From Gemmatimonadales bacterium (GTDB lineage: Bacteria > Gemmatimonadota > Gemmatimonadetes > Gemmatimonadales > GWC2-71-9), in the NCBI GenBank assembly GCA_040877595.1, contig JBBDNM010000063.1:6735-70734 (forward strand): DNA of 64,000 bases, read 5' to 3'. Under the pieces are notes generated by a model that was not told the origin of the DNA, did not search any database, and saw nothing but the letters and a program-made list of their open reading frames with translations. Position numbers and translations under genes: made by a program. The first letter of the stretch is position 1, and each line of letters starts with the position of its first letter. Positions 42,479 to 62,938 of this stretch are shown here, piece after piece.

Positions 42479-42955
42479 GTGAGCCGGAGTCTGAACAAGG
42501 CCACCCTCATCGGGAATCTCGGGGCGGATCCGGAAGTCCGGAGCACCGCAAACGGGACCAAGGTGGCCACGCTGTCGGTGGCAACGAGCCGGCAGTGGAC
42601 CACGCCGGGCGGTGAACGGCAGGAAAAGACGGAGTGGCATCGGGTGGTGCTGTGGAACAACCAGAAGGGCGGCTTGGCCGACATTGCGGAGAAGTTCCTC
42701 CACAAGGGCGACAAGGTGTATGTCGAAGGCCGCATTGAGTACCGCACGTGGGAGGATAAGGAGGGGAACACGCGATACACCACCGAGATCAATGCCCGGG
42801 AACTGCTGATGTTGTCCGGGCGCGGTGGGGTGAGTGACGATGCGCCGGCCCCGCGTGCTCGCGCGGCGCAGGCAGTGGTGGCGGAGACCAAGGCGGAGTC
42901 GTACGACGACTTCCCGGAGGCCCTTGATGACGAGGACGACGATCTCCCGTTCTAG
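42479..42955 (+). CDS. ssb: single-stranded DNA-binding protein
   Basis: LNKATLIGNLGADPEVR...TEWHRVVLW (OB fold) and an acidic tip ending DDDLPF. Confidence 0.96.
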   Translation: MSRSLNKATLIGNLGADPEVRSTANGTKVATLSVATSRQWTTPGGERQEKTEWHRVVLWNNQKGGLADIAEKFLHKGDKVYVEGRIEYRTWEDKEGNTRYTTEINARELLMLSGRGGVSDDAPAPRARAAQAVVAETKAESYDDFPEALDDEDDDLPF

Positions 42956-44217: not shown

Positions 44218-45165
44218 ATGACGCAGCGCGTACTGCTGACCGGCGGGGCCGGTTTCATTGGATCGCATGTCGCCGAGCAGTATCTGGCGGCGGGTTGGGA
44301 GGTGACCATCGTGGACAACCTGTCGTCCGGACGGCGCGAGAACCTTCCCGCCAAGGCCACCTTCGTGCACGACGATATCGGGTCTCCGGTGGTGCGGGCC
44401 CTGCTTGCCTCGGGTGGCTTCACGGTCGTCAACCACCACGCCGCCCAGATGGATGTCCGTGTGTCGGTCGAGCGTCCGGACTTCGACGCGCAGGTGAATC
44501 TCCTCGGGTTGCTCAACCTGCTCGAAGGCGCGCGGGCCGGTGGGGTGCCGCGGGTGGTGTTCGCGTCGTCGGGCGGCGTGGTATACGGCGAGAGCGACGC
44601 CCTGCCGCACGCCGAGGGTGCGCGCAAGCTGCCCGTGTCGCCGTACGGGGTGAGCAAGCTGGCCTCCGAGTTCTACCTTGCCGCGTACGCCCAGATGTAC
44701 GGCCTCGAAACCGTCGCGCTGCGGTATGCCAACGTGTACGGCCCCCGCCAGAATCCGCATGGCGAGGCGGGAGTCGTCGCCATCTTCTGCAACCGGCTCC
44801 GGCGCGGTTCCCCGATCACGGTGTACGGCGACGGAGCGCAAACACGGGACTACGTCCATGTCGGCGATGTCGCGCGCGCCAACGTGCTGGCAGCGACCTG
44901 TCCGGTGCGTCCGGTGTATGAACTGGACGATCGGGCCCTGAACATCGGGACCGGCGTGGAGACGAGCGTGCTGGGCCTCGCAGGGGCCTTGATGACCGCG
45001 AGCGGTGTGCGGGTGCCGGTGACCCATGCGGCCGCGCGGACCGGCGAACTGGCGCGCAGTGCGGTCGCCATTGACCGAGCCGCCGACTGGCTCGACTGGC
45101 GGCCGGAATGCACCTTGGCCACGGGACTCGAAGCCACGTGGCGCTGGATCACGACGGAGGCGTAA
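44218..45165 (+). CDS. NAD-dependent epimerase (UDP-glucose 4-epimerase family)
   Basis: VLLTGGAGFIGSHVAEQYL, YGVSKLASE (YxxxK) and LRYANVYGPRQNPHGEAGVVAIF. Confidence 0.8.
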   Translation: MTQRVLLTGGAGFIGSHVAEQYLAAGWEVTIVDNLSSGRRENLPAKATFVHDDIGSPVVRALLASGGFTVVNHHAAQMDVRVSVERPDFDAQVNLLGLLNLLEGARAGGVPRVVFASSGGVVYGESDALPHAEGARKLPVSPYGVSKLASEFYLAAYAQMYGLETVALRYANVYGPRQNPHGEAGVVAIFCNRLRRGSPITVYGDGAQTRDYVHVGDVARANVLAATCPVRPVYELDDRALNIGTGVETSVLGLAGALMTASGVRVPVTHAAARTGELARSAVAIDRAADWLDWRPECTLATGLEATWRWITTEA

Positions 45166-45872
45166 TGCTGCAGATTGGCGGGGCCCTCCCCACCACGCCG
45201 TGGGAACTGGTGACCACCTCGACCACTGCCACCAAAGTGGTGCTGGGCGTGCTGGTCCTGTTCTCGCTGTTCTCGTGGTTCCTGATCGTGCTGAAATGGT
45301 GGCAGTTCCGGCGCGTCCGGCGCGAAGGCGACCGGTTCTTTACGACACTCGAACGCACGGAGCGCCTGGAAGACGCCTACCACGCGGTCATGAAGCTGCC
45401 GCCGTCGCCGTACGGGCGATTGTTGCGTGAGGGCGTCAACTTCTTTTCCGAGCTGCGCCCCGGCGCGCTGCGAGCCGGGGGGGCCGAGGGCGGCACACTC
45501 ACCATGACCCAACTGGAGGCCCTGCGCATGGTGCTGGCCAAGGAGGTGGGTGGCGAGCGGGATGCGATGGCGCGGTTCCTGCCCTGGCTGGCCACGATCG
45601 GCGCGGTGAGCCCGCTGCTCGGTCTGCTCGGCACGGTGCTCGGCGTGATGAACGCGTTCCTCGGCATTGCCTCCGGGGGATCGGGCAACATTGCTGCCGT
45701 GGCCCCCGGCGTGGCGGAAGCCCTGATCACCACGGTGGTCGGCTTGTCCGTCGCCATCCCGGCGGTGATTGCGTACAACATCCTGGTCAACCGTCTCGGT
45801 CTGTTCGCTGGCGAACTCGAGGGCTTCGGGCAGGAGATCGTCGGGACACTGGCTCGCGAGGGGCGGCTGTAA
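45165..45872 (+). CDS. tolQ: MotA/TolQ/ExbB proton-channel protein (TolQ by context)
   Basis: It has three transmembrane segments and the conserved LATIGAVSPLLGLLGTVLGVMNAF...APGVAEALITTVVGLSVAIPA. Confidence 0.85.
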   Translation: MLQIGGALPTTPWELVTTSTTATKVVLGVLVLFSLFSWFLIVLKWWQFRRVRREGDRFFTTLERTERLEDAYHAVMKLPPSPYGRLLREGVNFFSELRPGALRAGGAEGGTLTMTQLEALRMVLAKEVGGERDAMARFLPWLATIGAVSPLLGLLGTVLGVMNAFLGIASGGSGNIAAVAPGVAEALITTVVGLSVAIPAVIAYNILVNRLGLFAGELEGFGQEIVGTLAREGRL

Positions 45873-45873
45873 G

Positions 45874-46311
45874 ATGGCGGCGGGCCAGCTCCAGCGCGGC
45901 GGTCTGCGGGACCATGGGGAGCTCCCGCTCATGGCAGACATCAACGTCACGTCGCTCGTGGATGTGGCGTTCGTGCTGCTCATCATTTTCATGATCACCG
46001 CGCCCATCATGCAGGGCGGCGTGGACGTGCAGTTGCCCCGGGCGGAAGCGCGGCCGCTGCAACCGCGCGAGGGTCTCGTGGTCACGGTGGACCAGCAGGG
46101 ACGCATCTTCGTGGACGAGACCTCATTCAGTTATCAGGACTTCCGTGTCGCGTTCCCGGCGCTGGTGAGCTCACGGCGGCCGAGTGGCGTGTACCTGCGA
46201 GCCGATCGCCGCGCGGAGTACGGCGTCGTGGTCCAGGTGCTGGCGATCATGCGTCAGGCCGGGGTCGACAACGTTGGGCTGGTGGCCGAAGCCGAGGAGA
46301 TTCGCCGGTGA
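45874..46311 (+). CDS. tolR: ExbD/TolR biopolymer transport protein (TolR by context)
   Basis: ADINVTSLVDVAFVLLIIFMITAP...VDVQLP. Confidence 0.85.
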   Translation: MAAGQLQRGGLRDHGELPLMADINVTSLVDVAFVLLIIFMITAPIMQGGVDVQLPRAEARPLQPREGLVVTVDQQGRIFVDETSFSYQDFRVAFPALVSSRRPSGVYLRADRRAEYGVVVQVLAIMRQAGVDNVGLVAEAEEIRR

Positions 46312-47003
46312 TCGACGTGTCGCGGCGACGGGCCGGACAGCGCCGCGCCCCCGGGCGCGGGTTGGCCGCCACGGGCACGCTCATGGTGCATGTGGGGGTC
46401 GCGGCCATGCTCACCGGTTTGCCTGAGCGCGAGGCCGCGCCGCCCCCGGTGTATCAGGTCAACCTGGTGGCCGCGCCGCGGCCCGAGCCGCAGGCGCGCC
46501 GCGCGCCCGAAACGGTAGACCGTCCGGCGGAGCAGGCGGTGCCCATTGCGCCGCGCCCCCGTCCGACTCCGGCGGTCCCCACGCCCCCCCCGGCGGCCCA
46601 GCCGGACGTGCGACGCGAGCCGGCCCCGCGCACCACCACGCCGGCGGAGCCGTTGCCTCAGGAGGCTCCTGCGACAGGCAGCGACGTGGCCACCGTGCGT
46701 ACCGACGGGTTGGAGTTCGCGTACCCGGAGTACCTGCGGAACATCACGACCCAGATTTATCGGCGTTGGAATCGTCCCACGGGTAACCAGCCCTTCCAGG
46801 CGGAGATCCAGTTCCTGCTGCATCGGGACGGTTCGATCTCGAGTCTGCGTTTTATTCGTCGGTCGGGCAATTTCGGGTTTGACCTCGAAGCGCAGGGCGC
46901 CATCGAGGCGGCCGGCAACCAGGGGGCCTTCGGTCCCCTGCCTGAGGGCTATCCGGCGGATGTGTTGCCCGTGAACTTCTTCTTCGACCCACAACGCCGC
47001 TGA
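46308..47003 (+). CDS. TonB/TolA-family energy transducer (TolA-position protein with TonB_C-like domain)
   Basis: It has an N-terminal anchor, a Pro-rich linker (PRPRPTPAVPTPPPAAQP) and a C-terminal domain YPEYLRN...GSISSLRFIRRSGNFGFDLEAQGAIE. Confidence 0.75.
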   Translation: MIDVSRRRAGQRRAPGRGLAATGTLMVHVGVAAMLTGLPEREAAPPPVYQVNLVAAPRPEPQARRAPETVDRPAEQAVPIAPRPRPTPAVPTPPPAAQPDVRREPAPRTTTPAEPLPQEAPATGSDVATVRTDGLEFAYPEYLRNITTQIYRRWNRPTGNQPFQAEIQFLLHRDGSISSLRFIRRSGNFGFDLEAQGAIEAAGNQGAFGPLPEGYPADVLPVNFFFDPQRR

Positions 47004-48325
47004 TGACGTTGGCGCGCCTGACGATGGGCTTGTCCTGCCTGCTCGTGTCCCCCTTCACCCTTGCGGCCCAGGATACGACACAGGCCGCAGGTGGGGTGCG
47101 CGTCGGCATTACCTACACACCCGGCGTGCGTCCCGGGGTGCTCGTGTTGGGTGGCCCGCGCGACGTGCGGCTCGATTCGGTACGGGCCATTCTCGCGCGC
47201 GACCTCGAATACTCCGACCGATTCGAGTTGATCTCGCTGCCCTCGGGAGACAGCCTCGGGCTGGGTCTCGGTGGGGCCAACCGGCCGGACTACGTGAACT
47301 ATCCGTTGTACGCGGCCCTGGGCGCGGACTGGGCGGTGGCGGCCGAGGCGGCCAACGAGTCGCTGGTGCGGGTGCGGGTGTTCGACGTGGGTGGCCAGGC
47401 CGTGCGTCGGGAGGTGACCATCGGCGTATCCGACATTGGCGACGCCAACTTCCGGCTGCTGGTGCACCGCACGGCCGATGAGATCGTGCGTGCCGTGTCG
47501 GGGACCCCGGGCGTCGCGGCCACCCGCCTGTTGCTGCTGCAGCGCGGCCGACTGTACACGGTGGACAGCGACGGTGCCGGGCTCATGCCCATTTCGCCCG
47601 CCAACACGCGGGCCCTCTCCTCGGCGTGGGGACCACGCGGCCAGCGCCTGGTGTACATGGAGTTCGGGGCCGATGATGGCGCGCGGCTGTGGATCATGGA
47701 CCCGGTCACCGGCGAGCGACGGGCCGTGCCGCCGACGTCCGAAGGACTCAACTTTGCCATGGCGTTTTCGCCAGACGGCACGCAACTCGCGTTCAGCCGT
47801 GCCAATGACGAAGGGACCGATATCCTGGTGTGGAATGTGGAGCGCACCTGCTGCCTGCAGCGGCTGACCGTGGGGCGGTTTTCGGATAACCTGAGCCCGA
47901 CGTATAGCCCGGATGGGCGTCGGATCGCGTTCGTCTCCACGCGCGCGGGGGCGCCGCAGATTTACGTGATGGAGGCCGATGGCACGGGTCAGGAATTGTT
48001 CGCGCCATTTGACTACGGCGTCACCGGTACGTCCAACGCGCCGGATTGGTCGCCGGACGGCCAGCACATCGCCTTTCATCGCGATGTCGCAGGGGCACCA
48101 CAGATCTTCGTGATGGACGTGCGGACGCGGACCGTGCGGCAGTTGACGAGCTTGGGCCGCAACGAAGACCCGACCTGGGCGCCGGATGGGCGACACCTGG
48201 CCTTCGTGTCTGACCGGACGGGCAACCGTCAGATCTGGATCATTGACCTGGACACGGGTCGCGTGCGACAACTCACCCGTTTGGGTGAGGCCCGGCTCCC
48301 GGCTTGGAGTCCCCGGATTGACTAG
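47003..48325 (+). CDS. tolB: Tol-Pal system beta-propeller protein TolB
   Basis: It has a signal peptide and repeated propeller blades (SPDGTQLAFS, SPDGRRIAFVS, SPDGQHIAFH, APDGRHLAFVS). Confidence 0.9.
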   Translation: MTLARLTMGLSCLLVSPFTLAAQDTTQAAGGVRVGITYTPGVRPGVLVLGGPRDVRLDSVRAILARDLEYSDRFELISLPSGDSLGLGLGGANRPDYVNYPLYAALGADWAVAAEAANESLVRVRVFDVGGQAVRREVTIGVSDIGDANFRLLVHRTADEIVRAVSGTPGVAATRLLLLQRGRLYTVDSDGAGLMPISPANTRALSSAWGPRGQRLVYMEFGADDGARLWIMDPVTGERRAVPPTSEGLNFAMAFSPDGTQLAFSRANDEGTDILVWNVERTCCLQRLTVGRFSDNLSPTYSPDGRRIAFVSTRAGAPQIYVMEADGTGQELFAPFDYGVTGTSNAPDWSPDGQHIAFHRDVAGAPQIFVMDVRTRTVRQLTSLGRNEDPTWAPDGRHLAFVSDRTGNRQIWIIDLDTGRVRQLTRLGEARLPAWSPRID

Positions 48326-48403
48326 GATTCCGATTGGCTTCATGCGGCGACACGAGTATCTTTAAGACACACGTCTGGAACGCACCCAACCTGGAGCAGG
48401 CAT

Positions 48404-49033
48404 ATGTCATTTCGACTGAGTCTCATGATCGGGCTGACCGGCCTGATGGTGGCGGCGGCATGTGGCGGCGGGCAGCAGGCCCCGGTCACGCCCCAGCCGA
48501 ACCTCGACTCGATTCGGCGGGCCGATTCGATCGCCCAAGCTGCGCGCGACCGGCGCGCCGCCGAAGAGCGGGCCCGACAGGAGCGCGAGGCGGCGCGGGA
48601 GCGCCTGGAGTCGCAGCGTCGCTCGGACTCGCTTGCCGCAGCCGAAGCCGCCATGGCCCGACTGCGCGAGTCCCTGACCACGCGCATCCACTTCGACTTC
48701 GATCAGTCATCCATTCGCGCGGGCGATGCCGCAGCGCTGGATGTCAAGATCGCGATCCTCCGGGCCAACCCGAACTTGCGGATCGCCGTCGTCGGTCATG
48801 CCGACGAACGGGGCTCGGACGAGTACAACCTGGCGCTCGGCAACCGTCGTGCGCTGGCCGCGCGGGCCTATATGGTCCAGCGGGGCATCGCGGCAGACCG
48901 GATCAGCACGTCGTCGCGCGGTGAAGAGCAGCCGCTCGTGATGGGTAGCAACGAAGCCGCCTGGGCGCAGAACCGGCGTGCCGAGTTCACCATCACGGCC
49001 GGTGGCGAGCGTCTCGTCGCCCCCGGGATGTGA
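48404..49033 (+). CDS. pal: peptidoglycan-associated lipoprotein Pal (OmpA-family)
   Basis: It has the lipobox LMVAAACGG and an OmpA-like domain IHFDFDQSSIR...VVGHADERGSDEYNLALGNRRA. Confidence 0.9.
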   Translation: MSFRLSLMIGLTGLMVAAACGGGQQAPVTPQPNLDSIRRADSIAQAARDRRAAEERARQEREAARERLESQRRSDSLAAAEAAMARLRESLTTRIHFDFDQSSIRAGDAAALDVKIAILRANPNLRIAVVGHADERGSDEYNLALGNRRALAARAYMVQRGIAADRISTSSRGEEQPLVMGSNEAAWAQNRRAEFTITAGGERLVAPGM

Positions 49034-49806
49034 TCAGGCAGTTCGTTCCTCTCGCGGCGGCCGTCGTCCTGAGCGGATGTGCGCTCAAGGGCGACGTCCG
49101 CCGCGTTGAACGAGCAGTCGCCTCCTTGCGGGGCGAATCGGCCCGCGCGGATTCCGTGCGGGCCGTTGAGGTGGAACGCCTCATTACGCTGGTGGCGGCC
49201 CTGCACGATTCCCTGGGGCTCCAGCAGCGCCGCTTGGCCGAGGCGCTGCAGCTCCAGCAGGGCGCGGTGCAGGCCGAACTGCTGGAAGTGCAACGGCAGT
49301 TGGTGCAGCTCCAGGAACTCACCGGCCAGAGCCAGCAGCGCCTGTCGGAACTGCGCCGCCAGCTTGAACAACGGGCACAGCAACCGGTCCCCGTGGAGCA
49401 GGCGGGGGGCCAGTCGGCCGGAGCCGGCGGACCCGGGCCGACGGAAATGTTTGAACTCTCCCTGCAGCAGTTGCGGCGGGGCAGCCCGTCCACCGCGCGG
49501 GCTGGATTCCGGATGTTCCTCGAGCAGCACCCCACGCACGACCGCGTCGTGGACGCCGTGTTCTTCATCGGTGAATCCTGGGGCGCGGCCCAGCCGGACA
49601 GCGCGGCACCGATGTACGAGCGGGTGGCCCGTGATTGGCCCGACTCCCCGCGGGCGCCGTCGGCCCTCTACAAGCTTGGCCTGCTGGCCGAGCAGCGGGG
49701 TGATGCGGCGCAGGCCCGGACGTTCTTCCAGCGAGTGCTGAGCGGCTATCCGCGCTCAGAAGAAGCCGCGCTGGCCCGCGACCGACTCGGCGCCAACCAG
49801 GAATAG
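49030..49806 (+). CDS. cpoB: Tol-Pal associated protein CpoB/YbgF
   Basis: It has a signal/lipobox (VVLSGCAL), a coiled-coil with Gln/Leu repeats, and a C-terminal TPR region (SALYKLGLLAEQRGDAAQARTFFQRVLSGYPRSEEA). Confidence 0.8.
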   Translation: MIRQFVPLAAAVVLSGCALKGDVRRVERAVASLRGESARADSVRAVEVERLITLVAALHDSLGLQQRRLAEALQLQQGAVQAELLEVQRQLVQLQELTGQSQQRLSELRRQLEQRAQQPVPVEQAGGQSAGAGGPGPTEMFELSLQQLRRGSPSTARAGFRMFLEQHPTHDRVVDAVFFIGESWGAAQPDSAAPMYERVARDWPDSPRAPSALYKLGLLAEQRGDAAQARTFFQRVLSGYPRSEEAALARDRLGANQE

Positions 49807-49823: not shown

Positions 49824-52800
49824 ATGGCTCGCCGCACCCAGCCTCCCGCGGGCGAAATGCCGTTCCTCGAGCATCTCGAGGAACTGCGGTGGCGCATCCT
49901 GTGGAGCATGATCGCCGTGGTGCTGGGAACGGCGCTGGGCTACTTCCTGGTGCAGCACTTCGACGTCATCGGCCTGCTCAAGCGACCCATCGAGCCCTTC
50001 CTGCCGACCGGTCGCCTCATGGTGACCCGGCCCGCCGACGCGTTTCTCATCACGCTCAAATTGTCGGTGGTGATCGGGATCGTGGTGGGTCTCCCGGTGA
50101 TCATCTGGCATCTGTGGCGGTTCCTGGCGCCCGCCCTGTACGAGCGGGAGCGCCGGTTCATGGTGCCGACGTTGTTCGCCGGGCTCATCCTGTTCGTCAC
50201 GGGCGTGGTGATCGCCTACCGCTGGGTGTTGCCGGCAGCGCTGCGGATCCTGCTCGGCTTCGCCTCAGATGATCTGGAGACGCTGATCACGGCGGATGCC
50301 TACTTCACGTTCGCGGCGCAGTTGATCCTGGCGTTCGGGGCGATGTTCGAGCTGCCGCTGGTCATCGTCCTGCTGGCCGCCACCGGGTTGGTGTCGCCCG
50401 ATTTCTTCCGCAAGCATCGGCCCATCGCGGTCGTCATCGCGGCGATCGTGGCGGCGTTTTTGACGCCCCCGGACCCACTGTCCATGATGATGATGCTGGG
50501 GCCCCTGATGCTGCTGTACGAAGGGGGTATCCTGGTGGCCCGGTTGGTGTGGCGATCGAAGCGTGAGGCGACCATCGGGGCCTTGCTGGTATTCGGGTTC
50601 CTGACCTTCGGGGCCGGGGACGCGGCGGCCCAACGCGACAGCCTGCCGCCTCGGGGCGAACGCCGGCCTGCCGTGGCGCAGGATACGGCCACCGCGCGGG
50701 GCCAGCCGATGGACACCGCCGCCGCCCGCCGTCTTGGTCTCCCAACCGCGCCCTCCCGCTCGTTTCCCGCCGAAGATTCCGTCCTCCGCCAGTTGATGGC
50801 CCTCGCCGGGTTCAAGGCGACCCGCTATGCGTCGGACAGTCTGGTGTTCCACGCGGACTCGCAGGCCATTCAGCTGAGGGGGCACGCCTTGATCGAGCAG
50901 GAAGGCGCCATGCTCGAAGCGGACTCGGTGGACTTCCGCCAGAACGCGTGTCGGCTCGACGCTGCCGGGCATCCGACCTTGTTCCAGGAAGGCACGGTCC
51001 TTGTCGGGCGGCGCATGTACTACGACACGTGCGCGCGGATCGGCTACGTCGGGGAAGCGTTGACCAGTTTTGAGCAAGGGGGGGTCGAGTGGATTTTGCG
51101 GGCCGGGCAGCAACGGGGGGGGCTCTCGATTGACTCCGCTTCGGTGCGGATCTACGCCGGGCACAGCGACATCACGAGCTGCGATCTGCCCAATCCGCAT
51201 TATCACTTTGCGGCCGGCTCGGTGAAGTGGGTCAGCAACCGATTCATGGTGGCGCGACCCGCGGTCCTCTACGTGCGGGATGTCCCGATTCTCTGGTTGC
51301 CATTCATCTTCCAGGACATGCGCGTGGGGCGGCGCAGCGGCCTCCTGGCACCGCGCTTCGGCATCAACGACCTGGTGCGTACCAACCCCGGGTACCGGCG
51401 CCACTTTGCGAACATCGGGTACTACTTCGCCATCAGCGACTACGTGGACGCGCAGGCCTCCGTCGACTGGTTCGATGAGAACTACGTCCAGGTGAACGCT
51501 CAGGTGCGGTATCGCTGGCTGAACCGGTTCCTTGGGGGCGGGCTCGCGGTGTCTCGCATCTTCGAATCCGGCCGGGACGAGGTGGGGGGCAGTCGCTCGC
51601 TCCGCCTGCGATGGAATCACCGGCAGAACTTCGACCTGCAAACGTCGTTGAACGCCGAAGTGGACTACACCAACAGCGCCCGGATCATCGAGCGCAACGC
51701 CACGGACCCGCATCAGGCCACGGCCACCCTGGGCAGTACGATCAACTTCACCAAGCGATTCGCTTGGGGCAGCATGGCGCTCGGGGCAAGTCGACGCCAG
51801 GAACTGACCTCGGGTGGTGTCACCCAGGTGTTCCCGTCCTTCAGCATTACCCCCGCGTCGCTTTCCTTGTCGGAGGCCATCACCTGGTCGCCGTCGTTCA
51901 GTGTCACCAACACGCGGGCGTTCCATCAGCGCGGAGCGGTGGAGCCGTTGCCGCCGCTCCCGGGCGACAGCGTGTTGCCGGTCGACACGCTCGAGTTTGG
52001 CAGTCGGAACACCACGCTCAGCCTGGGCACGCCAATCACGATCGGTCGCTGGACCTGGACCAACAGCGTGAACGTTACGGATGTGATCCAGGATCTGCGT
52101 CAAACGCTCACGCTCGTCGACTCGGTGACAGGCGATACCACCGTCCAGACGTTCGGCTACACCTTCGCCACCGACGTGAACTGGGAGACCGGGATCAACT
52201 TGCCCATCGTGTTCGCCAATAGCTGGAAAGTGACGCCACGGCTCGGCGTGACGAACGCGACCACCGGCCCGTTGTTGTTGCGCAACCGGAATACCCGGGG
52301 CGACTTCGTGAGCCAGGGGAAACGCGTTTCGGTGGGCGCCACGCTGGCCCCGCAGCTGTTTGCGTTCTTCCCGGGGTTGGGGCCTGTCGAACGCGTGCGC
52401 CACCAGGTGTCGCCGTTCGTGACGTGGGCCTGGGCGCCGGCGGCCGATGTGCCCGAGGCGTACGCGCGAGCCGTGTCCGGACCGGGCGGGACGCCGCAAC
52501 GGCGTTCCCCCGCCCAGCAGCGCGTGAGCATCGGCCTCTCGCAGGTGCTCGAAGGCAAACTTGCCTTGCCGGCTGGTGACACGACGACGGATCCTCGGAA
52601 TGCGCCCAAGATCAAGCTCTTGAGCCTGCAGACCAGTGCCATCACGTACGATTTCGAGCAAGCGAAAGAGGAAGGGCGGACCGGATGGCAGACCCCGTCG
52701 CTCGCGAACCAGCTGACGAGCGATTTGCTGCCGGGGTTCTCTGTGTCGCTGACCCATGACCTGTGGGAAGGGGCGGTGGGCACCGATTCCGCGGTGTTCC

Positions 52801-53351
52801 GGCCGCACCTGAACCGGGTGTCGGCACGGTTCTCGTTGTCGGAAGCGACGTTTGGCGGGTTGCTCGGGTTGCTCACGGGCCGGTCGAGCGCGACACCCAG
52901 ACGGCACCAAGTGGTGTCCGACACGGCGGCCACGCCGGAGGAGCTCCTGCCGAACCCGACGAACGACCCGTACGCCGATTTTGACCGGCGACCGCTGGCG
53001 CAACGCTCGGGGCGGCGCCCGATGACCGCGGCGATCACGTTTGAGTCCACCCGCCCGCGCCCGGTGTCCGGCGAGACCGCCACGATCCCGGTCGGGGCGC
53101 GCACGCTGGGACTCGCCCTCGGGTTCGATCCCACCCCGAACTGGTCGGTGTCGTGGACGACGCAGGTGGATCTCGCCACCGGTGAGTTTGGCCAGCATGC
53201 GCTGCGCCTTGAGCGCGACCTGCACCGGTGGCGGGCCACGTTCCAGTTCCTCAAGGCGCCGAACGGGAACTTCGCGTTCAACTTCTTCATCTCGTTGCTG
53301 GACCAACCCGAGATCAAGTTCCAGTACGACCAGCAGACGGTAGAGCGGTAG
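49824..53351 (+). CDS. single ORF fusing twin-arginine translocase TatC (about aa 1-245) to a signal-peptide-like segment and an LptD/OstA-like outer-membrane LPS-assembly protein (about aa 270-1175)
   Basis: The TatC part is collinear with E. coli TatC through LTPPDPLSMMMMLGPLMLLYEGGILVARLV. It is followed by RSKRE-ATIGALLVFGFLTFGAG-DAAA/Q. An OstA-like N-domain comes next (DSLVFHADSQAIQLRGHALIEQEGAMLEADSVDF), then LptD barrel motifs (ITSCDLPNPHYHF, RRSGLLAPRFG, GYYFAISDYVDA). There is no in-frame stop in 1175 codons. Confidence 0.75.
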   Translation: MARRTQPPAGEMPFLEHLEELRWRILWSMIAVVLGTALGYFLVQHFDVIGLLKRPIEPFLPTGRLMVTRPADAFLITLKLSVVIGIVVGLPVIIWHLWRFLAPALYERERRFMVPTLFAGLILFVTGVVIAYRWVLPAALRILLGFASDDLETLITADAYFTFAAQLILAFGAMFELPLVIVLLAATGLVSPDFFRKHRPIAVVIAAIVAAFLTPPDPLSMMMMLGPLMLLYEGGILVARLVWRSKREATIGALLVFGFLTFGAGDAAAQRDSLPPRGERRPAVAQDTATARGQPMDTAAARRLGLPTAPSRSFPAEDSVLRQLMALAGFKATRYASDSLVFHADSQAIQLRGHALIEQEGAMLEADSVDFRQNACRLDAAGHPTLFQEGTVLVGRRMYYDTCARIGYVGEALTSFEQGGVEWILRAGQQRGGLSIDSASVRIYAGHSDITSCDLPNPHYHFAAGSVKWVSNRFMVARPAVLYVRDVPILWLPFIFQDMRVGRRSGLLAPRFGINDLVRTNPGYRRHFANIGYYFAISDYVDAQASVDWFDENYVQVNAQVRYRWLNRFLGGGLAVSRIFESGRDEVGGSRSLRLRWNHRQNFDLQTSLNAEVDYTNSARIIERNATDPHQATATLGSTINFTKRFAWGSMALGASRRQELTSGGVTQVFPSFSITPASLSLSEAITWSPSFSVTNTRAFHQRGAVEPLPPLPGDSVLPVDTLEFGSRNTTLSLGTPITIGRWTWTNSVNVTDVIQDLRQTLTLVDSVTGDTTVQTFGYTFATDVNWETGINLPIVFANSWKVTPRLGVTNATTGPLLLRNRNTRGDFVSQGKRVSVGATLAPQLFAFFPGLGPVERVRHQVSPFVTWAWAPAADVPEAYARAVSGPGGTPQRRSPAQQRVSIGLSQVLEGKLALPAGDTTTDPRNAPKIKLLSLQTSAITYDFEQAKEEGRTGWQTPSLANQLTSDLLPGFSVSLTHDLWEGAVGTDSAVFRPHLNRVSARFSLSEATFGGLLGLLTGRSSATPRRHQVVSDTAATPEELLPNPTNDPYADFDRRPLAQRSGRRPMTAAITFESTRPRPVSGETATIPVGARTLGLALGFDPTPNWSVSWTTQVDLATGEFGQHALRLERDLHRWRATFQFLKAPNGNFAFNFFISLLDQPEIKFQYDQQTVER

Positions 53352-53452: not shown

Positions 53453-53514
53453 GTGGTGGCACGTTCCGTGCTTTTCCTAGGGACGTGACACTTTTCCATC
53501 AGGAGTGGGCGTCT

Positions 53515-54654
53515 ATGCGATTCCTTATTCCAGGCTTGGCGGTGGCCGCGATGGCGTGCGACCGGACCACGGAGATTGATCTTCTGGCACCAACCAACCT
53601 GACGTATCGGCTCGAGCCGTCAGGCGACCCCGACCTGCCCGCCGGGATCCTGTTGCAATGGGATCCCGTGTTGAGCAGCGGCCTTGAGGCGTACGAGGTG
53701 TATTCGCGCCCAGGGAGCAGTGGGTCGTTCGACCGCCGGGCCACCACCACGTCAACCACCTTCCACGACATCGGCGTACCGGATCTCGAGTACTACGTGA
53801 CCGCGCGGTCCACGGACGGTCGCGAGAGCGCGGCCAGTAACGCGGTGTATATCGATGAGCGGACCCGGATGGCGCGACCGGCGACGCTCACGTCCACGTC
53901 GCTGGACGGCGCGATCCACCTCGGATGGAGCGACAACGCCTTCCTCGCCGCCCCGAGCGCCTTCAAGCAGTACCGTATCTATAGCACGTTCTATGACCTC
54001 GATGCCGACGTGTGTGAAGCGGGCTGGATCCTCGAGGGCACGACGGTGGCCCCGGAGTTCCTTGTCGGGGCGTTGGCGAATGGTATCGCGCGGTGCTTTG
54101 CGGCGTCCGCCGAGAGTCACGCCGGCGATGAGAGCGTCTGGTCGCCACTCAGGGCCGACACCCCGCGGCCCGAGGGCCGGAACGTCCTGATGTTCCCGCT
54201 CTCGGTGGACCCCGCGCGGAGCGGGTTCCGGTTCTTCGACGACGCCAATGGCGATGGCCAGGCCTCGCGCATCGAACTGGGCCTGGTGGGTCCCGGTGGA
54301 TCGCCGTCCGTGGATTTCTGGGTCTATCGTGACGGCAACAACGACATCTTCCTGGTGCCACAACGCGCCGGCGTCCGTGTTGCCGTGTACGGCAGCGTGC
54401 CGGTCGGTGGTCTCACCAGCATCGATGTCGCGCCCGAGACGGGTTATGCCACGACGGGCGTCGAAGCGGTCCCCGGCTGGGGCTACGTGTTCGAGATGCC
54501 GGGTGGCGACGGGTTCCTCCGGTTTGGCGCCTTGCGGGTCACGCACGCGAGTGCGGACTACCTGATCTGCGATTGGGCGTACCAGACCGATCCGGGCAAT
54601 CCCGAGTTGCGCTGGATGGGAACGGTGGAGACCGGGGTGACCGTTCGTCGCTAA
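53515..54654 (+). CDS. putative lipoprotein with fibronectin type III-like repeats, function unknown
   Basis: ATG 53515 has AGGAG 9 nt upstream. The N-terminus is MRFLIPGLAVAAMAC. There are two FN3-like modules (LTYRLEP...LLQWDP...YEVYS...YYVTARSTDGRESAAS, and LTSTSLDGAIHLGWSD...YRIYST). Confidence 0.55.
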   Translation: MRFLIPGLAVAAMACDRTTEIDLLAPTNLTYRLEPSGDPDLPAGILLQWDPVLSSGLEAYEVYSRPGSSGSFDRRATTTSTTFHDIGVPDLEYYVTARSTDGRESAASNAVYIDERTRMARPATLTSTSLDGAIHLGWSDNAFLAAPSAFKQYRIYSTFYDLDADVCEAGWILEGTTVAPEFLVGALANGIARCFAASAESHAGDESVWSPLRADTPRPEGRNVLMFPLSVDPARSGFRFFDDANGDGQASRIELGLVGPGGSPSVDFWVYRDGNNDIFLVPQRAGVRVAVYGSVPVGGLTSIDVAPETGYATTGVEAVPGWGYVFEMPGGDGFLRFGALRVTHASADYLICDWAYQTDPGNPELRWMGTVETGVTVRR

Positions 54655-54662
54655 GACAACAA

Positions 54663-54759
54663 CGAATGGCGAATGACGAGTGAGGAATGACGAATGTCGA
54701 ACTGATGGTTGGTTCGGCATTCGCCATTCGCCATTCGCCATTCGCCATTCTCCGTTCCT
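54663..54759. repeat. heptad-periodic inverted-repeat element, copy 2: (CGAATGN)6 - loop - (CATTCGC)4 plus degenerate units
   Basis: The left arm (54663-54704) is CGAATGG CGAATGA CGAGTGA GGAATGA CGAATGT CGAACTG. The inner stem is CGAAC(54698-702)/GTTCG(54712-716) with a 9-nt loop. The right arm is CATTCGC x4 (54718-54745), then CATTCTC and CGTTCCT. It starts 9 nt after the upstream stop and ends just before the hutH ATG. Confidence 0.85.
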
Positions 54760-54765
54760 CCCGTT

Positions 54766-56277
54766 ATGCTCCGGCCAATGTCCATCTCGATTGACGGCCA
54801 TTCCCTCACGCTCGATCACGTCACCGCTGTCGCCCGCCGGGGCGCTATGGTGGCTGTGGCTCCCGAGGCCATCGCGCGGGCCAAGGCGTCGCGGGCCACG
54901 ATTGAGCGGTTGCTCGCGAGCGGGCGGTCCATCTACGGCGTGAACACCGGGTTCGGGAAGCTGGCCAGCGTGCGCATCCCGGATGATCGCCTGCGCGACC
55001 TGCAGCGCAACCTGATCGTCAGTCACGCCGCGGGCGTGGGCGACCCGCTGCCGCCGGACATCGTGCGCGCCATGATGCTGCTGCGCGCCAACGTCCTGCT
55101 GCGCGCAACGAGCGGCGTGCGTCCGGTCGTGGCGGAGCGTCTCATCGCGCTGCTCAACGCCGGCATCCTGCCCGTGGTCCCCGAGCAGGGGAGCGTGGGC
55201 GCGAGCGGTGACTTGGCGCCGTTGGCGCACCTGGCCCTGGCCCTGCTGGGTGAGGGTGAGGTGGATGTCCAGCGCTCCCGTCTTCCCGCCAAGGAGGCGC
55301 TCGATGCCGCCGGTATCGCGCTGCTCACGCTCGAGCCCAAGGAAGGGCTCGCCTTCGTGAACGGTACGCAGGCCCAGACCGCGGTCCTGGCCCTCGTGCT
55401 GGCGGATGCCGAGCGGTTGTGGCATCACGCGCACGTCGGCGCCGCGATGTCGGTCGAAGCCCTGCGGGGCACCCCCGATCCGTTTGACCCGCGCATCCAT
55501 GCCGCTCGGCCCCATCCGGGCCAGGTCCGGTCGGCCGCGTTGCTCGCGGACCTGCTGGCGGGGTCGGCCCTGCGCGAGTCGCATCGTGAGAACGACCCCC
55601 GTGTCCAGGATGCCTACAGCCTGCGGTGCACGCCGCAGGTGTATGGTCCCGTCGCCGACATGCTGGCGTTCGCCCGGCAGATTCTCGACACGGAACTCAA
55701 TGCCTCCACCGATAACCCGCTGCTGCTGGGCGAGGATGTCGTGTCCGGCGGCAACTTCCACGGCCAGTACGTGGCGATGGCGCTCGACACCGTGACGGTG
55801 GCGCTCACGACGCTGGCCGGGCTCGCGGAGCGGCGCATCGAACGGTTGCTCAACCCCGACCTGTCCGAAGGTCTGCCCGCGTTCCTCGCGGCGTCGCCGG
55901 GGCTCGAGTCCGGATTCATGATGGTGCAGGTGACCGCGGCGGCGCTGGTGGCCGAGAGTCGGACGCTCTGCATGCCGGCGAGTGTGCAGTCCATTCCCAC
56001 GGGTGCCAACCAGGAAGATTGGGTGCCGATGGGCATGGTGGCGGCCTTCAAGGCCCGGCGCGTCCTCGCCAACGCCGAACACGTGGTGGCCGCAGAATTG
56101 CTGTGCGCGGCGCAAGCGCTCGGCGGGGCGACCATCGCGGGTCCGACCCCGGCGCCCAAGGTGGTGGCGGCGTGGCGGGCGGTGCGTGAGGTGGTCGCCC
56201 CGCTCACGGCCGATCGGGCTCCCGCACCGGACCTGGTCCGTCTGCGCGCGCGCCTGGCCGGCTCGTTGCTCGCGTGA
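54766..56277 (+). CDS. hutH: histidine ammonia-lyase
   Basis: [17 protein letters not shown] and [16 protein letters not shown] (the MIO-forming ASG). ATG 54766, with an alternative at 54778. Confidence 0.95.
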
Positions 56278-62407: not shown

Positions 62408-62679
62408 TGGCGATCGGCCCGCGGCGACCCGCGTTCTACCTCGGCGTGCTGACCGTCGGGTTTGTGCTGGGTGGGTTTCTGTCCGAGTTGCTCAAGCGGT
62501 TCCTGCCGGCCGGGCCCGCGAAGGAGTTCTTCACGTGGACGGTGACCCCGTCCATTGGGCCCTTCCACCTTGACCTGCTTATCTTGCAGATGACCCTGGG
62601 TCCGATCGGGCTCCAAGTCTCGTTGCTCGCGATCGTGGGCGTGATGCTGGCCTACCTGATCGCGCGCAGCCTCTTCTAG
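62407..62679 (+). CDS. small integral membrane protein (DUF4321-like)
   Basis: The 90-aa product has two hydrophobic segments (YLGVLTVGFVLGGFLSELL and VSLLAIVGVMLAYLIA). The GTG overlaps the ispB TAG. The family assignment is from memory only. Confidence 0.45.
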   Translation: MAIGPRRPAFYLGVLTVGFVLGGFLSELLKRFLPAGPAKEFFTWTVTPSIGPFHLDLLILQMTLGPIGLQVSLLAIVGVMLAYLIARSLF

Positions 62680-62689
62680 CGAGGGCGCC

Positions 62690-62938
62690 ATGTTCAGTCA
62701 GCTCGGCTTCAGCGAAATCCTCATCATCCTGCTGATCCTGTTGCTTGTGTTCGGGGCGCGCCGGCTGCCCGAGATGGGGGCGGCCATGGGGAAGGGGATC
62801 CGCGAATTCAAGAAGAATATCAAGGATGTCCAGCAGTCCATTGACACGCCGGCCGATGAGGCGAGCACGGGCCGACGCCTGGATGCGCCGGCCCGTGAGG
62901 CCCAGTCTGAGGGCGAGCCGAAGAAGCTCTCGCAGTAA
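62690..62938 (+). CDS. tatA: twin-arginine translocase subunit TatA/E
   Basis: MFSQLGFSEILIILLILLLVFGARRLPEMGAAMGKGIREFKKNIKD is the canonical TatA transmembrane segment plus amphipathic helix. Confidence 0.92.
   Translation: MFSQLGFSEILIILLILLLVFGARRLPEMGAAMGKGIREFKKNIKDVQQSIDTPADEASTGRRLDAPAREAQSEGEPKKLSQ

What the first reader, a model, noticed from the sequence alone, without database searches (positions are those of the whole stretch)
49824..53351. TatC and an LptD-like outer-membrane protein encoded as one uninterrupted 1175-codon ORF, joined by an internal signal-peptide-like segment
What the sequence shows:
- Residues 1 to about 245 are a complete six-transmembrane TatC, collinear with E. 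coli TatC up to ...LTPPDPLSMMMMLGPLMLLYEGGILVARLV.
- No stop codon follows. The frame continues RSKRE-ATIGALLVFGFLTFGAG-DAAA-QRD. That is a basic n-region, a 17-residue hydrophobic h-region and an AxA-type c-region, in other words a textbook Sec signal peptide or a seventh transmembrane segment.
- The TatC C-terminus is cytoplasmic, so this segment would carry the chain into the periplasm.
- The remaining roughly 900 residues look like LptD: an OstA-like beta-jellyroll, then barrel motifs ITSCDLPNPHYHF, RRSGLLAPRFG and GYYFAISDYVDA.
- In-frame TTG 50544, GTG 50547 and GTG 50535 could also allow independent initiation of the LptD part. Even then TatC would still have no stop of its own.

Context:
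- The ORF is the last gene of a tolQ-tolR-tolA-tolB-pal-cpoB envelope cluster.
- tatA lies 9 kb away, at 62690.

I know of no described TatC-LptD fusion. If real, it implies either a polyprotein cleaved by signal peptidase at about 50630, or a physical link between Tat export and LPS insertion.
Basis: partly seen in the sequence, partly recalled or inferred. Interest (0 to 1): 0.8.

Follow-up and report, generated by a model that had tools for sequence, protein, structure and literature searches.

The report
TatC–LptD polyprotein with internal signal peptide
In many uncultured Gemmatimonadota, an inner-membrane export protein (TatC) and an outer-membrane LPS-insertion protein (LptD) are made as one chain, joined by LptD's own signal peptide; this segment most likely lets signal peptidase cut the chain in two, an arrangement that no paper I could search describes.

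Summary
ORF 49824-53351 (1175 codons, GC3 0.86) encodes a complete TatC (Pfam 214 bits; fold TM 0.8 to 4b4a). It continues without a stop into an n-h-c signal-peptide-like segment ending AAA|Q, then a full LptD-type beta-jellyroll plus barrel (PF19838; Foldseek E 1e-24 to LptDE structures).

It is not an assembly error:
- All 120 best database homologs (49-95% identity) carry both domains.
- 67 of 80 species-level Gemmatimonadota genome loci are fused.

Relatives in the same tol-pal-cpoB-tatC-lptD-hutH synteny carry two genes whose stop and start overlap (GTGA, TGATG, TAGTG). In those, LptD has an ordinary N-terminal signal peptide ending in the same AxA|Q. The internal segment is therefore LptD's retained signal peptide. 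Fusion arose at least four times, in Gemmatimonadales, Longimicrobiales and sporadic cases.

The cleavage-site residues are the only conserved part of the linker (-1 A/G in 111/116, +1 Q in 111/116). No conserved internal start codon exists.

Best explanation (inferred, not shown): the chain inserts co-translationally, signal peptidase I cuts at A269|Q270, mature LptD is released, and TatC keeps a seventh helix. I found no literature description. It is a new variant of known kinds and moderately interesting.

The parts
49824..53351 (+). Single ORF of 1175 codons plus stop, encoding the TatC-signal peptide-LptD fusion.
   Evidence: GC3 0.86. Both Pfam domains lie in one frame. 120 of 120 top homologs have the same architecture.
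49824..50567 (+). TatC domain, residues 1-248: six TM helices, collinear with Aquifex aeolicus TatC to its end (...LLYE..R.KKE).
   Evidence: PF00902, 214 bits. TIGR00945, 204 bits. phmmer to 4b4a E 8.5e-45, query 12-249 against chain 1-237. AF2 helices 14-247. Foldseek 4b4a TM 0.83.
50541..50567 (+). Basic stretch R240-E248 (RLVWRSKRE). It is the cytoplasmic end of TatC TM6 and doubles as the n-region of the internal signal peptide.
   Evidence: Sequence. The median net charge of this region in the fused set is +3.
50568..50618 (+). Hydrophobic h-region A249-G265 (ATIGALLVFGFLTFGAG).
   Evidence: Median h+c length is 20 in fused proteins against 18 in the N-terminal signal peptides of standalone homologs. 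Positional identity is only 0.22 against a protein mean of 0.59. AF2 pLDDT is below 50.
50619..50633 (+). c-region D266-A269 plus Q270. The predicted signal peptidase I site is AAA|Q, with the cut between nt 50630 and 50631.
   Evidence: -3: A70 L23 G9 V7 S5 T2. -1: A96 G15. +1: Q in 111 of 116. Q270 is invariant in A1. The same AxA|Q ends the N-terminal signal peptides of unfused homologs.
50631..50708 (+). Variable Pro/Arg-rich spacer, residues 270-295. It would be the N-terminus of mature LptD.
   Evidence: Variable in length and sequence. Also present in standalone homologs. pLDDT below 50.
50709..50813 (+). Conserved N-terminal module of this LptD family, residues 296-330 (MDTAAARRLGLPTAPSRSFPAEDSVLRQLMAL), with two short predicted helices.
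   Evidence: Invariant or nearly invariant D297, T298, P307, P310, P315, D318 and S319. Helices at 298-304 and 319-326.
50814..51323 (+). OstA/LptD_N-like beta-jellyroll, about residues 331-500.
   Evidence: AF2 strands 333-498. Weak OstA_2 match. Foldseek alignments to full-length LptD cover it.
51402..53339 (+). Large C-terminal beta-barrel, about residues 527-1172.
   Evidence: PF19838 LptD_2, residues 476-945. AF2 strands 527-1172, mostly pLDDT above 80. Foldseek to LptD 8h1s_C E 2.4e-24 and 9kn3_A TMt 0.61.
45108..49806 (+). Upstream tolQ-tolR-tolA-like-tolB-pal-cpoB-like cluster. The cpoB-like stop lies 17 nt before the fusion's ATG.
   Evidence: Pfam MotA_ExbB, ExbD, TonB_2, PD40, OmpA and TPR_6. 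The same synteny is found in L081, L082, L084, L085 and L086.
62690..62938 (+). tatA (82 aa, MFSQLGFSEILIILLILLLVFGARRLPE...), the partner of the TatC domain.
   Evidence: ORF and sequence. The TatA identification rests on the sequence motif, from knowledge of the family.

Best explanation
The gene is a natural TatC-LptD polyprotein. It arose when the stop codon of tatC was lost at a 4-nt stop/start overlap with the downstream, translationally coupled lptD.

Proposed mechanism:
1. The ribosome makes one chain.
2. TatC's six helices insert co-translationally (N-in, C-in).
3. The next segment is LptD's original signal peptide. Its n-region is now supplied by the basic residues after TatC TM6. 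It inserts as a hairpin with TM6 and threads the roughly 900-residue LptD part through SecYEG.
4. Signal peptidase I cuts after A269 (AAA|Q270).
5. This releases mature LptD with an N-terminal Gln for chaperone/BAM-dependent assembly in the outer membrane.
6. TatC is left with the signal peptide attached as a short seventh helix.

The products are thus the same as in relatives with two genes, at an obligatory 1:1 synthesis ratio.

Shown here: the uninterrupted ORF, the identity and fold of both domains, conservation of the fusion, the two-gene sister state, positional equivalence of the linker to a genuine signal peptide, and selective conservation of the cleavage-site residues.

Inferred, not shown: Sec/SRP routing, actual cleavage, and the function of both products.
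For: (1) The fusion is real and maintained.
- 120 of 120 best homologs carry PF00902 plus PF19838 at about 1155-1200 aa and 49-95% identity.
- 67 of 80 GTDB species loci are fused. Six are cut by contig ends, and three look like frameshifted fused junctions.

(2) A two-gene state exists in the same synteny.
- L045, L047, L058 and L080 have TAGTG, TAG-GTG or TGATG junctions.
- L081 has a GTGA overlap.
- P0191 and P0127 have 4-nt overlaps.
- In these, LptD begins with a normal signal peptide ending AxA|Q.

(3) The linker follows the SPase I (-3,-1) rule.
- -1 is A or G in 111 of 116; -3 is A, L, G, V, S or T in all; +1 is Q in 111 of 116.
- A Pro or Gly helix breaker lies at -7..-4 in 98%.
- The h+c length is 20, against 18 in the standalone signal peptides.

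(4) The h-region evolves like a signal peptide. Its identity is 0.22, against 0.15 for shuffled sequences and 0.59 for the whole protein. AF2 does not dock it on TatC (pLDDT below 50 over residues 248-295).

(5) TolB and ORF 42834 in this window also have ...LAA|QDTTQ signal peptides. AxA|Q is therefore the local signal-peptide ending.

(6) There are several independent fusions with different junction architectures.
- The crown Gemmatimonadales clade.
- The Longimicrobiales clade (about 30 clusters).
- P0180.
- P0408, which keeps a long TatC tail.
- Easy interconversion implies that both states yield equivalent products.

(7) There is no conserved internal start or SD.

(8) TatC is intact to its last core residue. 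The LptD part has the full jellyroll plus barrel fold.
Against: - No protein-level data exist. Cleavage is inferred from sequence only, and SignalP or DeepTMHMM could not be run.
- Sec signal peptides placed after six TM helices are rarely documented in bacteria.
- An outer-membrane barrel would have to be exported co-translationally behind an SRP substrate, which is atypical for OMPs.
- The h+c region is slightly longer in fused proteins (20 against 18). A 'TIG' motif at the n/h boundary is fairly conserved in the crown clade, so some added constraint on the retained helix cannot be excluded.
- I could not test whether the same genomes hold a second tatC or lptD.
- The tree behind the count of independent fusions is a simple NJ tree without support values. 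The differences in synteny and junction architecture do back it.
Confidence: 0.7

Rival explanations
1. Permanent tether. The hydrophobic segment is an uncleaved seventh transmembrane anchor. One polypeptide spans the envelope, with TatC in the inner membrane and the LptD barrel in the outer membrane, physically coupling Tat export sites to LPS insertion sites.
For: - There is no stop between the domains.
- The spacer of about 65 residues between the site and the jellyroll could in principle reach across a narrow periplasm.
- The fusion is maintained for long evolutionary times in two orders.
- The hydrophobic segment is slightly more conserved than in standalone signal peptides (0.22 against 0.17).
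Against: - The same spacer and the same AxA|Q are present in unfused homologs, where the segment is an ordinary cleavable signal peptide.
- The spacer is not lengthened in fused proteins: median 68 against 75 residues. It is only 34 residues in the P0180 group, which is at most about 12 nm.
- The h-region is about 12-15 residues with a Pro/Gly breaker, which is short for a stable anchor.
- Selective conservation of -3/-1/+1 has no rationale if no cleavage occurs.
- Frequent switching between fused and two-gene states argues that the link is not functionally required.
Confidence: 0.1
2. Internal initiation. Functional LptD is mainly made from an internal start (GTG 50535, TTG 50544, GTG 50547 or similar) upstream of the signal peptide. 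The read-through fusion is a tolerated by-product.
For: - In-frame GTG/TTG codons exist before the n-region in the window and in 59 of 63 fused loci.
- The YEGG codons (GAAGGGGGT) make an SD-like purine run about 7 nt upstream of GTG 50535.
- The ancestral two-gene form used coupled initiation.
Against: - Candidate starts are scattered, from -62 to -14 relative to Q270, with no conserved column.
- An SD-like core is present for 9.6% of candidates against 4.5% for in-gene controls. Only 1 of 63 loci has a core of 5 nt or more, and 4 of 63 loci have no candidate at all.
- GTG is simply the commonest Val codon at 67% GC.
- Every ribosome that makes TatC must still read through into LptD, so the fusion chain is produced anyway and still needs the signal peptide and cleavage.
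Confidence: 0.1
3. Artefact. A sequencing or assembly error removed the tatC stop codon or shifted the frame in this window.
For: Three of the 80 related loci (L012, L073, L077) do show frameshift-like disruptions typical of MAG or long-read errors. Errors therefore do occur at this locus, though there they split the ORF rather than join it.
Against: - Independent assemblies from JGI, ENA, NCBI and Logan give the same uninterrupted architecture: 120 of 120, 67 of 80, and P0001 at 95% identity.
- The fused junction differs structurally from the two-gene junction. It has no acidic TatC tail and no SD-encoding GEA* end, so it is not one base away from it.
Confidence: 0.01
4. The C-terminal barrel is not the LPS insertase but a different OstA-fold outer-membrane protein. 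In that case the fusion says nothing about LPS transport.
For: - Classical LptD models fail. There is no PF04453 hit, and NCBIfam LptD equivalogs score about 24 bits against cutoffs of 683-944.
- Sequence identity to solved LptDs is 9-13%.
- The protein is about 150 residues longer than E. coli LptD and has an extra conserved N-terminal module.
Against: - PF19838 (LptD_2) scores 121 bits against a cutoff of 22.5.
- The 15 best structural matches are all full-length LptD, covering jellyroll plus barrel, with E 1e-24 to 1e-17. The next non-LptD barrels are at 1e-5.
- PGAP names the standalone orthologs 'putative LPS assembly protein LptD'.
Confidence: 0.07

Closest known systems
Two-gene tatC-lptD arrangement in Gemmatimonadaceae-labelled and other Gemmatimonadota MAGs (e.g. 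L081, L085, L047, L080)
   Same: - Same tolQRA-tolB-pal-cpoB-tatC-lptD-hutH synteny.
- Orthologous TatC and LptD_2.
- The LptD signal peptide ends in AxA|Q.
- Same Pro/Arg-rich spacer and conserved N-terminal module.
   Different: - There, TatC (258-263 aa) has its own stop and an acidic/Ala-rich tail ending ...GEA*, whose codons form an SD-like GGNGAGG.
- lptD starts at an overlapping GTG or ATG.
- In the window the tail and stop are gone, and TatC's post-TM6 basic residues serve as the signal-peptide n-region.
TatC (E. coli; Aquifex aeolicus 4b4a/4hts; TatBC cryo-EM 9dzz)
   Same: About 35% identity. Six-helix fold with TM-score 0.79-0.83. Collinear from the N-terminal EHLxELR motif to the end of TM6.
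   Different: Known TatC proteins end in a short cytoplasmic tail. This one continues into a seventh hydrophobic segment and a 900-residue periplasmic/outer-membrane protein.
LptD of the LptDE translocon (4q35, 5iv9, 8h1s, 9kn3)
   Same: N-terminal beta-jellyroll plus very large C-terminal barrel. Best structural matches have E 1e-24 to 1e-17.
   Different: - Only 9-13% identity.
- Belongs to the PF19838 (LptD_2) family, not PF04453.
- Has an extra conserved N-terminal module (residues 296-330).
- Made as the C-terminal part of a TatC fusion rather than with an N-terminal signal peptide.
Bradyrhizobium japonicum FbcH cytochrome b-c1 precursor (recalled from memory: Thony-Meyer, James and Hennecke, PNAS 1991). 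I could not retrieve it with the paper tools.
   Same: As I recall it, a polytopic inner-membrane protein is followed in the same ORF by the signal peptide of a periplasm-facing partner, and the chain is split at that internal signal sequence. This is the same logic as proposed here.
   Different: - The two FbcH products are subunits of one complex in one membrane.
- Here the products belong to unrelated machines in two different membranes.
- Cleavage here is untested.
Bacteroidetes 'Q-rule' (Gln at +1 of SPase I substrates, cyclised to pyroglutamate; PMC5837995, PMC10653852)
   Same: The junction, TolB and ORF 42834 in this window, and the standalone LptD homologs all end AxA|Q.
   Different: The rule was reported as specific to Bacteroidetes, 'not the entire FCB group' (PMC5837995 abstract). 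I did not test it proteome-wide in Gemmatimonadota, and my crude scan was uninformative.

Membership tests
TatC (PF00902 / TIGR00945) | Profile HMM match above the curated cutoffs over the full model. | tested here: met
   PF00902 scores 214.1 bits against 25.1, covering model positions 1-208 of 208. TIGR00945 scores 204.3 against 132.7.
TatC (PF00902 / TIGR00945) | Six-TM glove-like fold. | tested here: met
   AF2 helices 14-247, pLDDT mostly 76-92. Foldseek: 4b4a TMt 0.83, 9dzz_A TMt 0.81.
TatC (PF00902 / TIGR00945) | Conserved N-terminal and TM2-TM3 loop glutamates implicated in twin-arginine signal recognition (E. coli E15/E103; residue roles recalled from memory). | tested here: met
   H17, L18, E19, E20, R22 and E109 are invariant across 68 fused proteins. 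They align to the EHLRELR and ALYSHEKR motifs of Aquifex TatC.
TatC (PF00902 / TIGR00945) | A TatA/B-family partner is encoded in the genome. | tested here: met
   An 82-aa TatA-like ORF lies at 62690-62938.
TatC (PF00902 / TIGR00945) | Tat-dependent export activity. | not testable with these tools
   Needs genetics or biochemistry.
LptD (LPS-assembly outer-membrane protein) | Match to a curated LptD profile. | tested here: inconclusive
   PF19838 LptD_2 scores 121.6 bits against 22.5 (met). PF04453 gives no hit, and the NCBIfam LptD equivalogs score 24 bits against cutoffs of 683-944 (not met).
LptD (LPS-assembly outer-membrane protein) | N-terminal OstA-type beta-jellyroll followed by a very large (26-strand) beta-barrel. 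| tested here: met
   AF2 gives a jellyroll at 333-498 and a barrel at 527-1172. The top 15 PDB matches are all full-length LptD, E 2.4e-24 to 8.6e-17. The exact strand number was not counted.
LptD (LPS-assembly outer-membrane protein) | LptE plug partner and the rest of the Lpt/Lpx pathway in the same genome; no other lptD. | not tested
   Only 64 kb of this genome and 10-kb flanks of relatives were available.
Sec-type signal peptide cleaved by signal peptidase I | Positively charged n-region, h-region of 7-15 hydrophobic residues, helix breaker, small neutral residues at -3 and -1. | tested here: met
   The window has RLVWRSKRE / ATIGALLVFGFLTFGAG / DAAA|Q.
Sec-type signal peptide cleaved by signal peptidase I | Located at the N-terminus of the precursor. 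| tested here: not met
   It starts at residue 240 or so, after six TM helices. It is N-terminal only in the unfused homologs.
Sec-type signal peptide cleaved by signal peptidase I | Actual cleavage. | not testable with these tools
   Needs N-terminomics, western blots or an SPase inhibitor.
Bacterial polyprotein split at an internal signal peptide (FbcH type) | The upstream polytopic protein ends in the cytoplasm, and the downstream part is an exported protein whose unfused orthologs carry the signal peptide at the equivalent position. | tested here: met
   The TatC C-in topology comes from homology to solved TatC. Positional equivalence is shown.

The most novel reading that the evidence does not exclude
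The retained LptD signal peptide is not just a leftover. It may stay on TatC as a functional seventh helix next to TM5/TM6, the TatA/TatB docking face, in a phylum that appears to have only TatA. Alternatively, a fraction of the chain may remain uncleaved and tether Tat translocons to LPS-insertion sites across the envelope. Either way a new mode of coupling inner- and outer-membrane biogenesis would have been selected repeatedly.
Probability: 0.12. Interest if true: 0.85.

Novelty: new variant of a known kind. Interest (0 to 1): 0.6.

Why it matters
- **A natural test case for OMP export.** If the chain is cleaved as proposed, a roughly 900-residue outer-membrane beta-barrel is exported co-translationally behind a six-helix SRP-type membrane protein. 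This bears on whether OMP biogenesis really needs post-translational SecB/SecA-type delivery, and on how signal peptidase handles internal signal peptides in bacteria.
- **A seven-helix TatC.** TatC would carry a foreign helix beside its TatA-binding face, which is relevant to models of Tat assembly.
- **Fixed 1:1 synthesis.** A Tat subunit and the LPS insertase would be made in equal amounts.
- **Evolution.** The locus shows how 4-nt overlapping, translationally coupled genes can flip between two-gene and one-gene states when the downstream gene brings its own targeting and cleavage signal.
- **Annotation.** Hundreds of database entries named only 'TatC' hide the phylum's LptD. This affects surveys of LPS and outer-membrane gene content.

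Tried and rejected
- **Genome-contig scan with the 25-sequence alignment A2.** It failed for lack of a conserved stretch. I repeated it with the 7-sequence A3.
- **Cap on loci.** Only the best 80 of at least 579 loci were returned, so cultured genera (Gemmatimonas, Longimicrobium) could not be checked by name.
- **'Gln at +1' scan.** A crude regex scan of all loci, meant to test the habit proteome-wide, was dominated by Pal lipoproteins and mis-sited motifs. It gave no usable estimate. I keep only the direct observations on TolB and ORF 42834.
- **Divergence normaliser.** The normaliser for the signal-peptide conservation comparison failed on a regex. I used the whole-protein column identity instead.
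- **Literature.** Searches for the FbcH precedent and for bacterial internal signal peptides returned nothing relevant, so that precedent is cited from memory only. Searches for TatC+LptD+fusion, Gemmatimonadetes+TatC and LptD+Gemmatimonad found no description of the fusion.
- **Rfam and tRNA scans.** They found only one tRNA-Leu, far from the locus.
- **Assembly artefact.** Considered and rejected; see the rival explanations.
- **Programmed recoding.** Considered and rejected: there is no stop or frameshift to bypass.

Full report
**1.

- The ORF listing returns a single ORF, 49824..53351 (+), 1175 aa. The raw sequence shows no stop between the TatC-like and LptD-like parts.
- The window is 67% G+C, where long shadow ORFs are common. 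This ORF, however, has the coding signature of a real gene, with GC at codon positions 1/2/3 of 0.63/0.49/0.86.
- Pfam finds TatC (PF00902) at residues 16-227 (E 2.5e-63) and LptD_2 (PF19838) at residues 476-945 (E 4.8e-35). There is also a weak OstA_2 match at 344-410.
- NCBIfam tatC TIGR00945 scores 204 bits, against a cutoff of 132.7.
- Classical LptD models do not match. There is no PF04453 hit, and the LptD equivalogs reach about 24 bits. The LptD call therefore rests on PF19838 and on structure.
- The context is also correct. TolQ, TolR, a TonB_2/TolA-like protein, TolB, Pal and a CpoB-like TPR protein lie directly upstream. TatA is at 62690-62938.

**2. Structure**

- An AlphaFold2 model built on 68 homologs has mean pLDDT 78.5. 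It gives a confident six-helix TatC (14-247), a beta-jellyroll (333-498) and a very large barrel (527-1172). The junction 248-295 has pLDDT below 50 and is not packed on TatC.
- In Foldseek against the PDB, the 15 best hits are all full-length LptD: 8h1s_C at E 2.4e-24, 9kn3_A with TMt 0.61, plus 5iv9 and 4q35.
- TatC structures follow, at TM 0.79-0.83 and about 35% identity (4b4a, 4hts, 9dzz).
- By sequence, the TatC part is collinear with Aquifex TatC from residue 12 to 249. The TatC core therefore ends exactly where the hydrophobic segment begins.

**3. It is not an artefact**

- A search of 5.8 billion proteins gave 1665 hits. All 120 listed carry both Pfam domains; nearly all are about 1155-1200 aa at 49-95% identity, and a few are partial. 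They come from JGI, ENA, NCBI and Logan assemblies. Where named, they are called 'twin-arginine translocase subunit TatC' from Gemmatimonadales or Gemmatimonadota MAGs.
- A scan of one genome per GTDB species found at least 579 loci, of which the best 80 were returned. All 80 are Gemmatimonadota.
- I classified them using my own TatC and LptD HMMs on stop-to-stop ORFs:

| Class | Loci |
|---|---|
| Fused | 67 |
| Cut by a contig end | 6 |
| tatC directly upstream but not in the same ORF | 7 |

**4. The seven exceptions explain the origin**

- Three (L012, L073, L077) look like frameshifted fused-type junctions.
- Four (L045, L047, L058, L080) are clean two-gene loci:
  - TatC ends with an acidic/Ala-rich tail, ...ERRRARAEAAA..GEA*.
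  - lptD starts at an abutting or overlapping codon (TAG-GTG, TAGTG, cTGATG). The GGNGAGG that encodes the G-E of the tail lies a few bases upstream of this start and is SD-like.
  - LptD begins with an ordinary signal peptide, for example MRAALLALAALALAAASAAA|QVRRE.
- More distant standalone homologs from the 50%-identity representative library behave the same way. P0121, P0132, P0138 and P0139 each start with a signal peptide ending AxA|Q.
- Their genomic context is the same synteny:

| Locus | Protein | State |
|---|---|---|
| L081 | P0138 | TolA-like-TolB-Pal-CpoB-TatC (263 aa)-LptD_2-HutH, with a GTGA start/stop overlap |
| (no DNA held) | P0191 | Two genes, 4-nt overlap |
| L085 | P0127 | Two genes, 4-nt overlap |

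- The internal hydrophobic segment of the fusion is therefore the positional equivalent of LptD's own signal peptide. The fusion is what results when the tatC stop at a coupled overlap is lost.

**5. The fusion arose repeatedly**

An NJ tree of the LptD part (182 sequences, midpoint-rooted, no support values) shows the following:
- A large, uniformly fused crown clade that contains the window.
- A two-gene sister clade.
- Deeper two-gene clades. One is labelled Gemmatimonadaceae by NCBI.
- Isolated fused members among them.

Independent evidence agrees with the tree:
- P0177, P0180, P0191 and P0420 share an nrdR insertion upstream of the tatC-lptD position; in P0420's locus (L087), which lacks tatC, nrdR lies directly upstream of lptD. 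This insertion is absent from the window and from the Gemmatimonadaceae-labelled loci. Within that group, P0177 and P0180 are fused and P0191 is not.
- P0177 heads a Longimicrobiales-labelled clade of about 30 fused clusters at 44-70% identity.
- P0408, a fused member inside the Gemmatimonadaceae clade, still keeps the long TatC tail before the signal peptide...RKRQKRRDRREAEENASQQSAEAPAIPRSLYVLLAASLLLPAGSAFG|Q.
- P0127 is two-gene, and its nearest neighbour in the tree, P0128, is fused, as is the next branch out, P0126.
- In L087, a relative whose flanking DNA is about 79% identical to P0177's locus (its LptD is 80% identical in protein), tatC is cleanly absent and LptD has a normal N-terminal signal peptide.

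I count at least four independent fusions. The ease of switching implies that the two states give functionally equivalent products.

**6. The linker behaves as a cleavable signal peptide**

- Statistics for 116 fused homologs, anchored on the invariant Gln:

| Position | Residues |
|---|---|
| -3 | A70, L23, G9, V7, S5, T2 |
| -1 | A96, G15 |
| +1 | Q in 111 of 116 |

- Q270 is one of the few invariant columns between residues 233 and 297 in alignment A1.
- A Pro or Gly lies at -7..-4 in 98% of cases.
- The uncharged h+c stretch has a median of 20 residues, against 18 in the N-terminal signal peptides of standalone homologs.
- Position-wise identity of the h-region is 0.22. The shuffled expectation is 0.15 and the whole-protein mean is 0.59. 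Only -3, -1 (0.72) and +1 (1.0) stand out.
- This is the pattern of a signal peptide, constrained by composition and cleavage site. It is not the pattern of a helix with specific packing contacts.
- TolB (...FTLAA|QDTTQ) and ORF 42834 (...WPLAA|QDTTQ) in the same window end the same way.

**7. Alternatives**

- *Internal initiation.* Among 63 fused loci, in-frame ATG/GTG/TTG codons between TM6 and the h-region are scattered, with no conserved column.
  - Only 9.6% have even a 4-nt SD-like core, against 4.5% for in-gene controls.
  - One locus has a core of 5 nt or more, and four loci have no candidate at all.
  - Every ribosome that makes TatC must in any case read on into LptD.
- *Permanent tether.*
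  - The distance from the predicted site to the first jellyroll strand has a median of 68 residues in fused proteins (minimum 34). In standalone proteins the median is 75.
  - Nothing was added to bridge the periplasm, and the P0180 group seems too short to do so.
  - Neither alternative can be excluded without protein data.

**8. Proposed mechanism**

The order of events is inferred. It rests on established knowledge of TatC topology, Sec/YidC insertion and the SPase I (-3,-1) rule.

1. TatC inserts co-translationally, N-in and C-in.
2. The basic RLVWRSKRE stays cytoplasmic.
3. The h-region inserts as a hairpin with TM6 and initiates translocation of the LptD part.
4. SPase I cuts AAA|Q between nt 50630 and 50631.
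5. Mature LptD, with an N-terminal Gln that is possibly cyclised, goes to BAM.
6. TatC retains the signal peptide as a seventh helix.

I give this 0.7.

**9. Comparison with what is known**

- Both halves are members of known families: TatC clearly, and LptD by the LptD_2 profile and by fold.
- The logic resembles the Bradyrhizobium FbcH cytochrome b-c1 precursor, which is split at an internal signal sequence. I cite that from memory because the paper tools did not return it.
- The AxA|Q ending recalls the Bacteroidetes Q-rule. That rule was reported as not extending to the whole FCB group (PMC5837995).
- No paper in the searchable library mentions a TatC-LptD fusion. This includes a TatC survey that counted one Gemmatimonadetes TatC (PMC3827258).
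- Database annotation hides the fusion under the name 'TatC'.

**10. Verdict**

- The feature is real, conserved and recurrent. It is best read as a signal-peptidase-processed TatC-LptD polyprotein.
- It is a new variant of known kinds. It is of moderate to fairly high interest for people working on Tat, Lpt, signal peptidase and OMP targeting.
- The key step, cleavage, is still untested.

Noticed in passing
window 47003-47080 (TolB) and 42834-43010 (428-aa ORF): Both non-lipoprotein signal peptides near the locus end ...LAA|QDTTQ, the same AxA|Q as the junction. TolB in related loci does the same (...AAA|QDS, ...ASA|QDT). This hints at a Bacteroidetes-like 'Q-rule' (Gln at +1) in Gemmatimonadota, which the Q-rule paper reported as Bacteroidetes-specific.
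   Followed up: partly
L087 1830-1975, compared with L082 6001-6850: In a Longimicrobiales-type relative, the tatC part is cleanly missing. The flanks align at about 79% nt identity on both sides. nrdR is followed directly by lptD, which has a normal N-terminal signal peptide. This is a third state of the locus; tatC has been lost or relocated. It rests on a single 5.7-kb contig.
   Followed up: partly
L045, L047, L058 and L080 junctions (e.g. L047 1300-1330): In the two-gene forms, TatC ends with a conserved ...PGEA*/GEL* tail. Its codons (GGN GAG GCC) form an SD-like GGAGG/GCGAGG 5-8 nt before the overlapping lptD start. The tail may be conserved for the RNA signal rather than for the protein.
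   Followed up: no
window 50709-50813 (residues 296-330): The motif (M/L)DTAAARRLGLPTAPSRSFPxxDSV is strongly conserved, with two short predicted helices, and lies between the disordered spacer and the jellyroll. It is present in the fused proteins and in their closer standalone LptD_2 relatives (e.g. P0121, P0124, P0127); more distant standalone homologs keep mainly the ..DSVM..LL part. It has no counterpart that I know of in proteobacterial LptD. Function unknown.
   Followed up: no
window 50571-50579 (T250-I251-G252): A 'T-I-G' motif at the n/h boundary of the internal signal peptide is fairly conserved across the fused crown clade, though the rest of the h-region is not. This could reflect shared ancestry or some constraint on the retained helix.
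   Followed up: no
window 53485-54654: A 389-aa ORF with a lipoprotein-like N-terminus (...GLAVAAMAC) and no Pfam hit lies between lptD and hutH. Genes without Pfam hits occupy the same position in L085 (278 aa) and L086 (367 aa).
   Followed up: no
L082 5504-6001, L084 4486-4995, L087 1332-1829: nrdR is inserted between cpoB and tatC in the Longimicrobiales-type loci. It is absent from the window and from the Gemmatimonadaceae-type loci. This makes a handy synteny marker separating the independent fusion events.
   Followed up: partly
window 62407-62679: A small membrane protein with DUF4321 (PF14209) ends 10 nt before tatA. It may be co-transcribed with tatA.
   Followed up: no
window 54709-57935: Histidine-utilisation genes follow the envelope cluster: hutH (Lyase_aromatic, E 3e-190) and then, by synteny with L081, a urocanase-type gene. 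The tol-pal-tatC-lptD-hut order is conserved across the phylum.
   Followed up: partly
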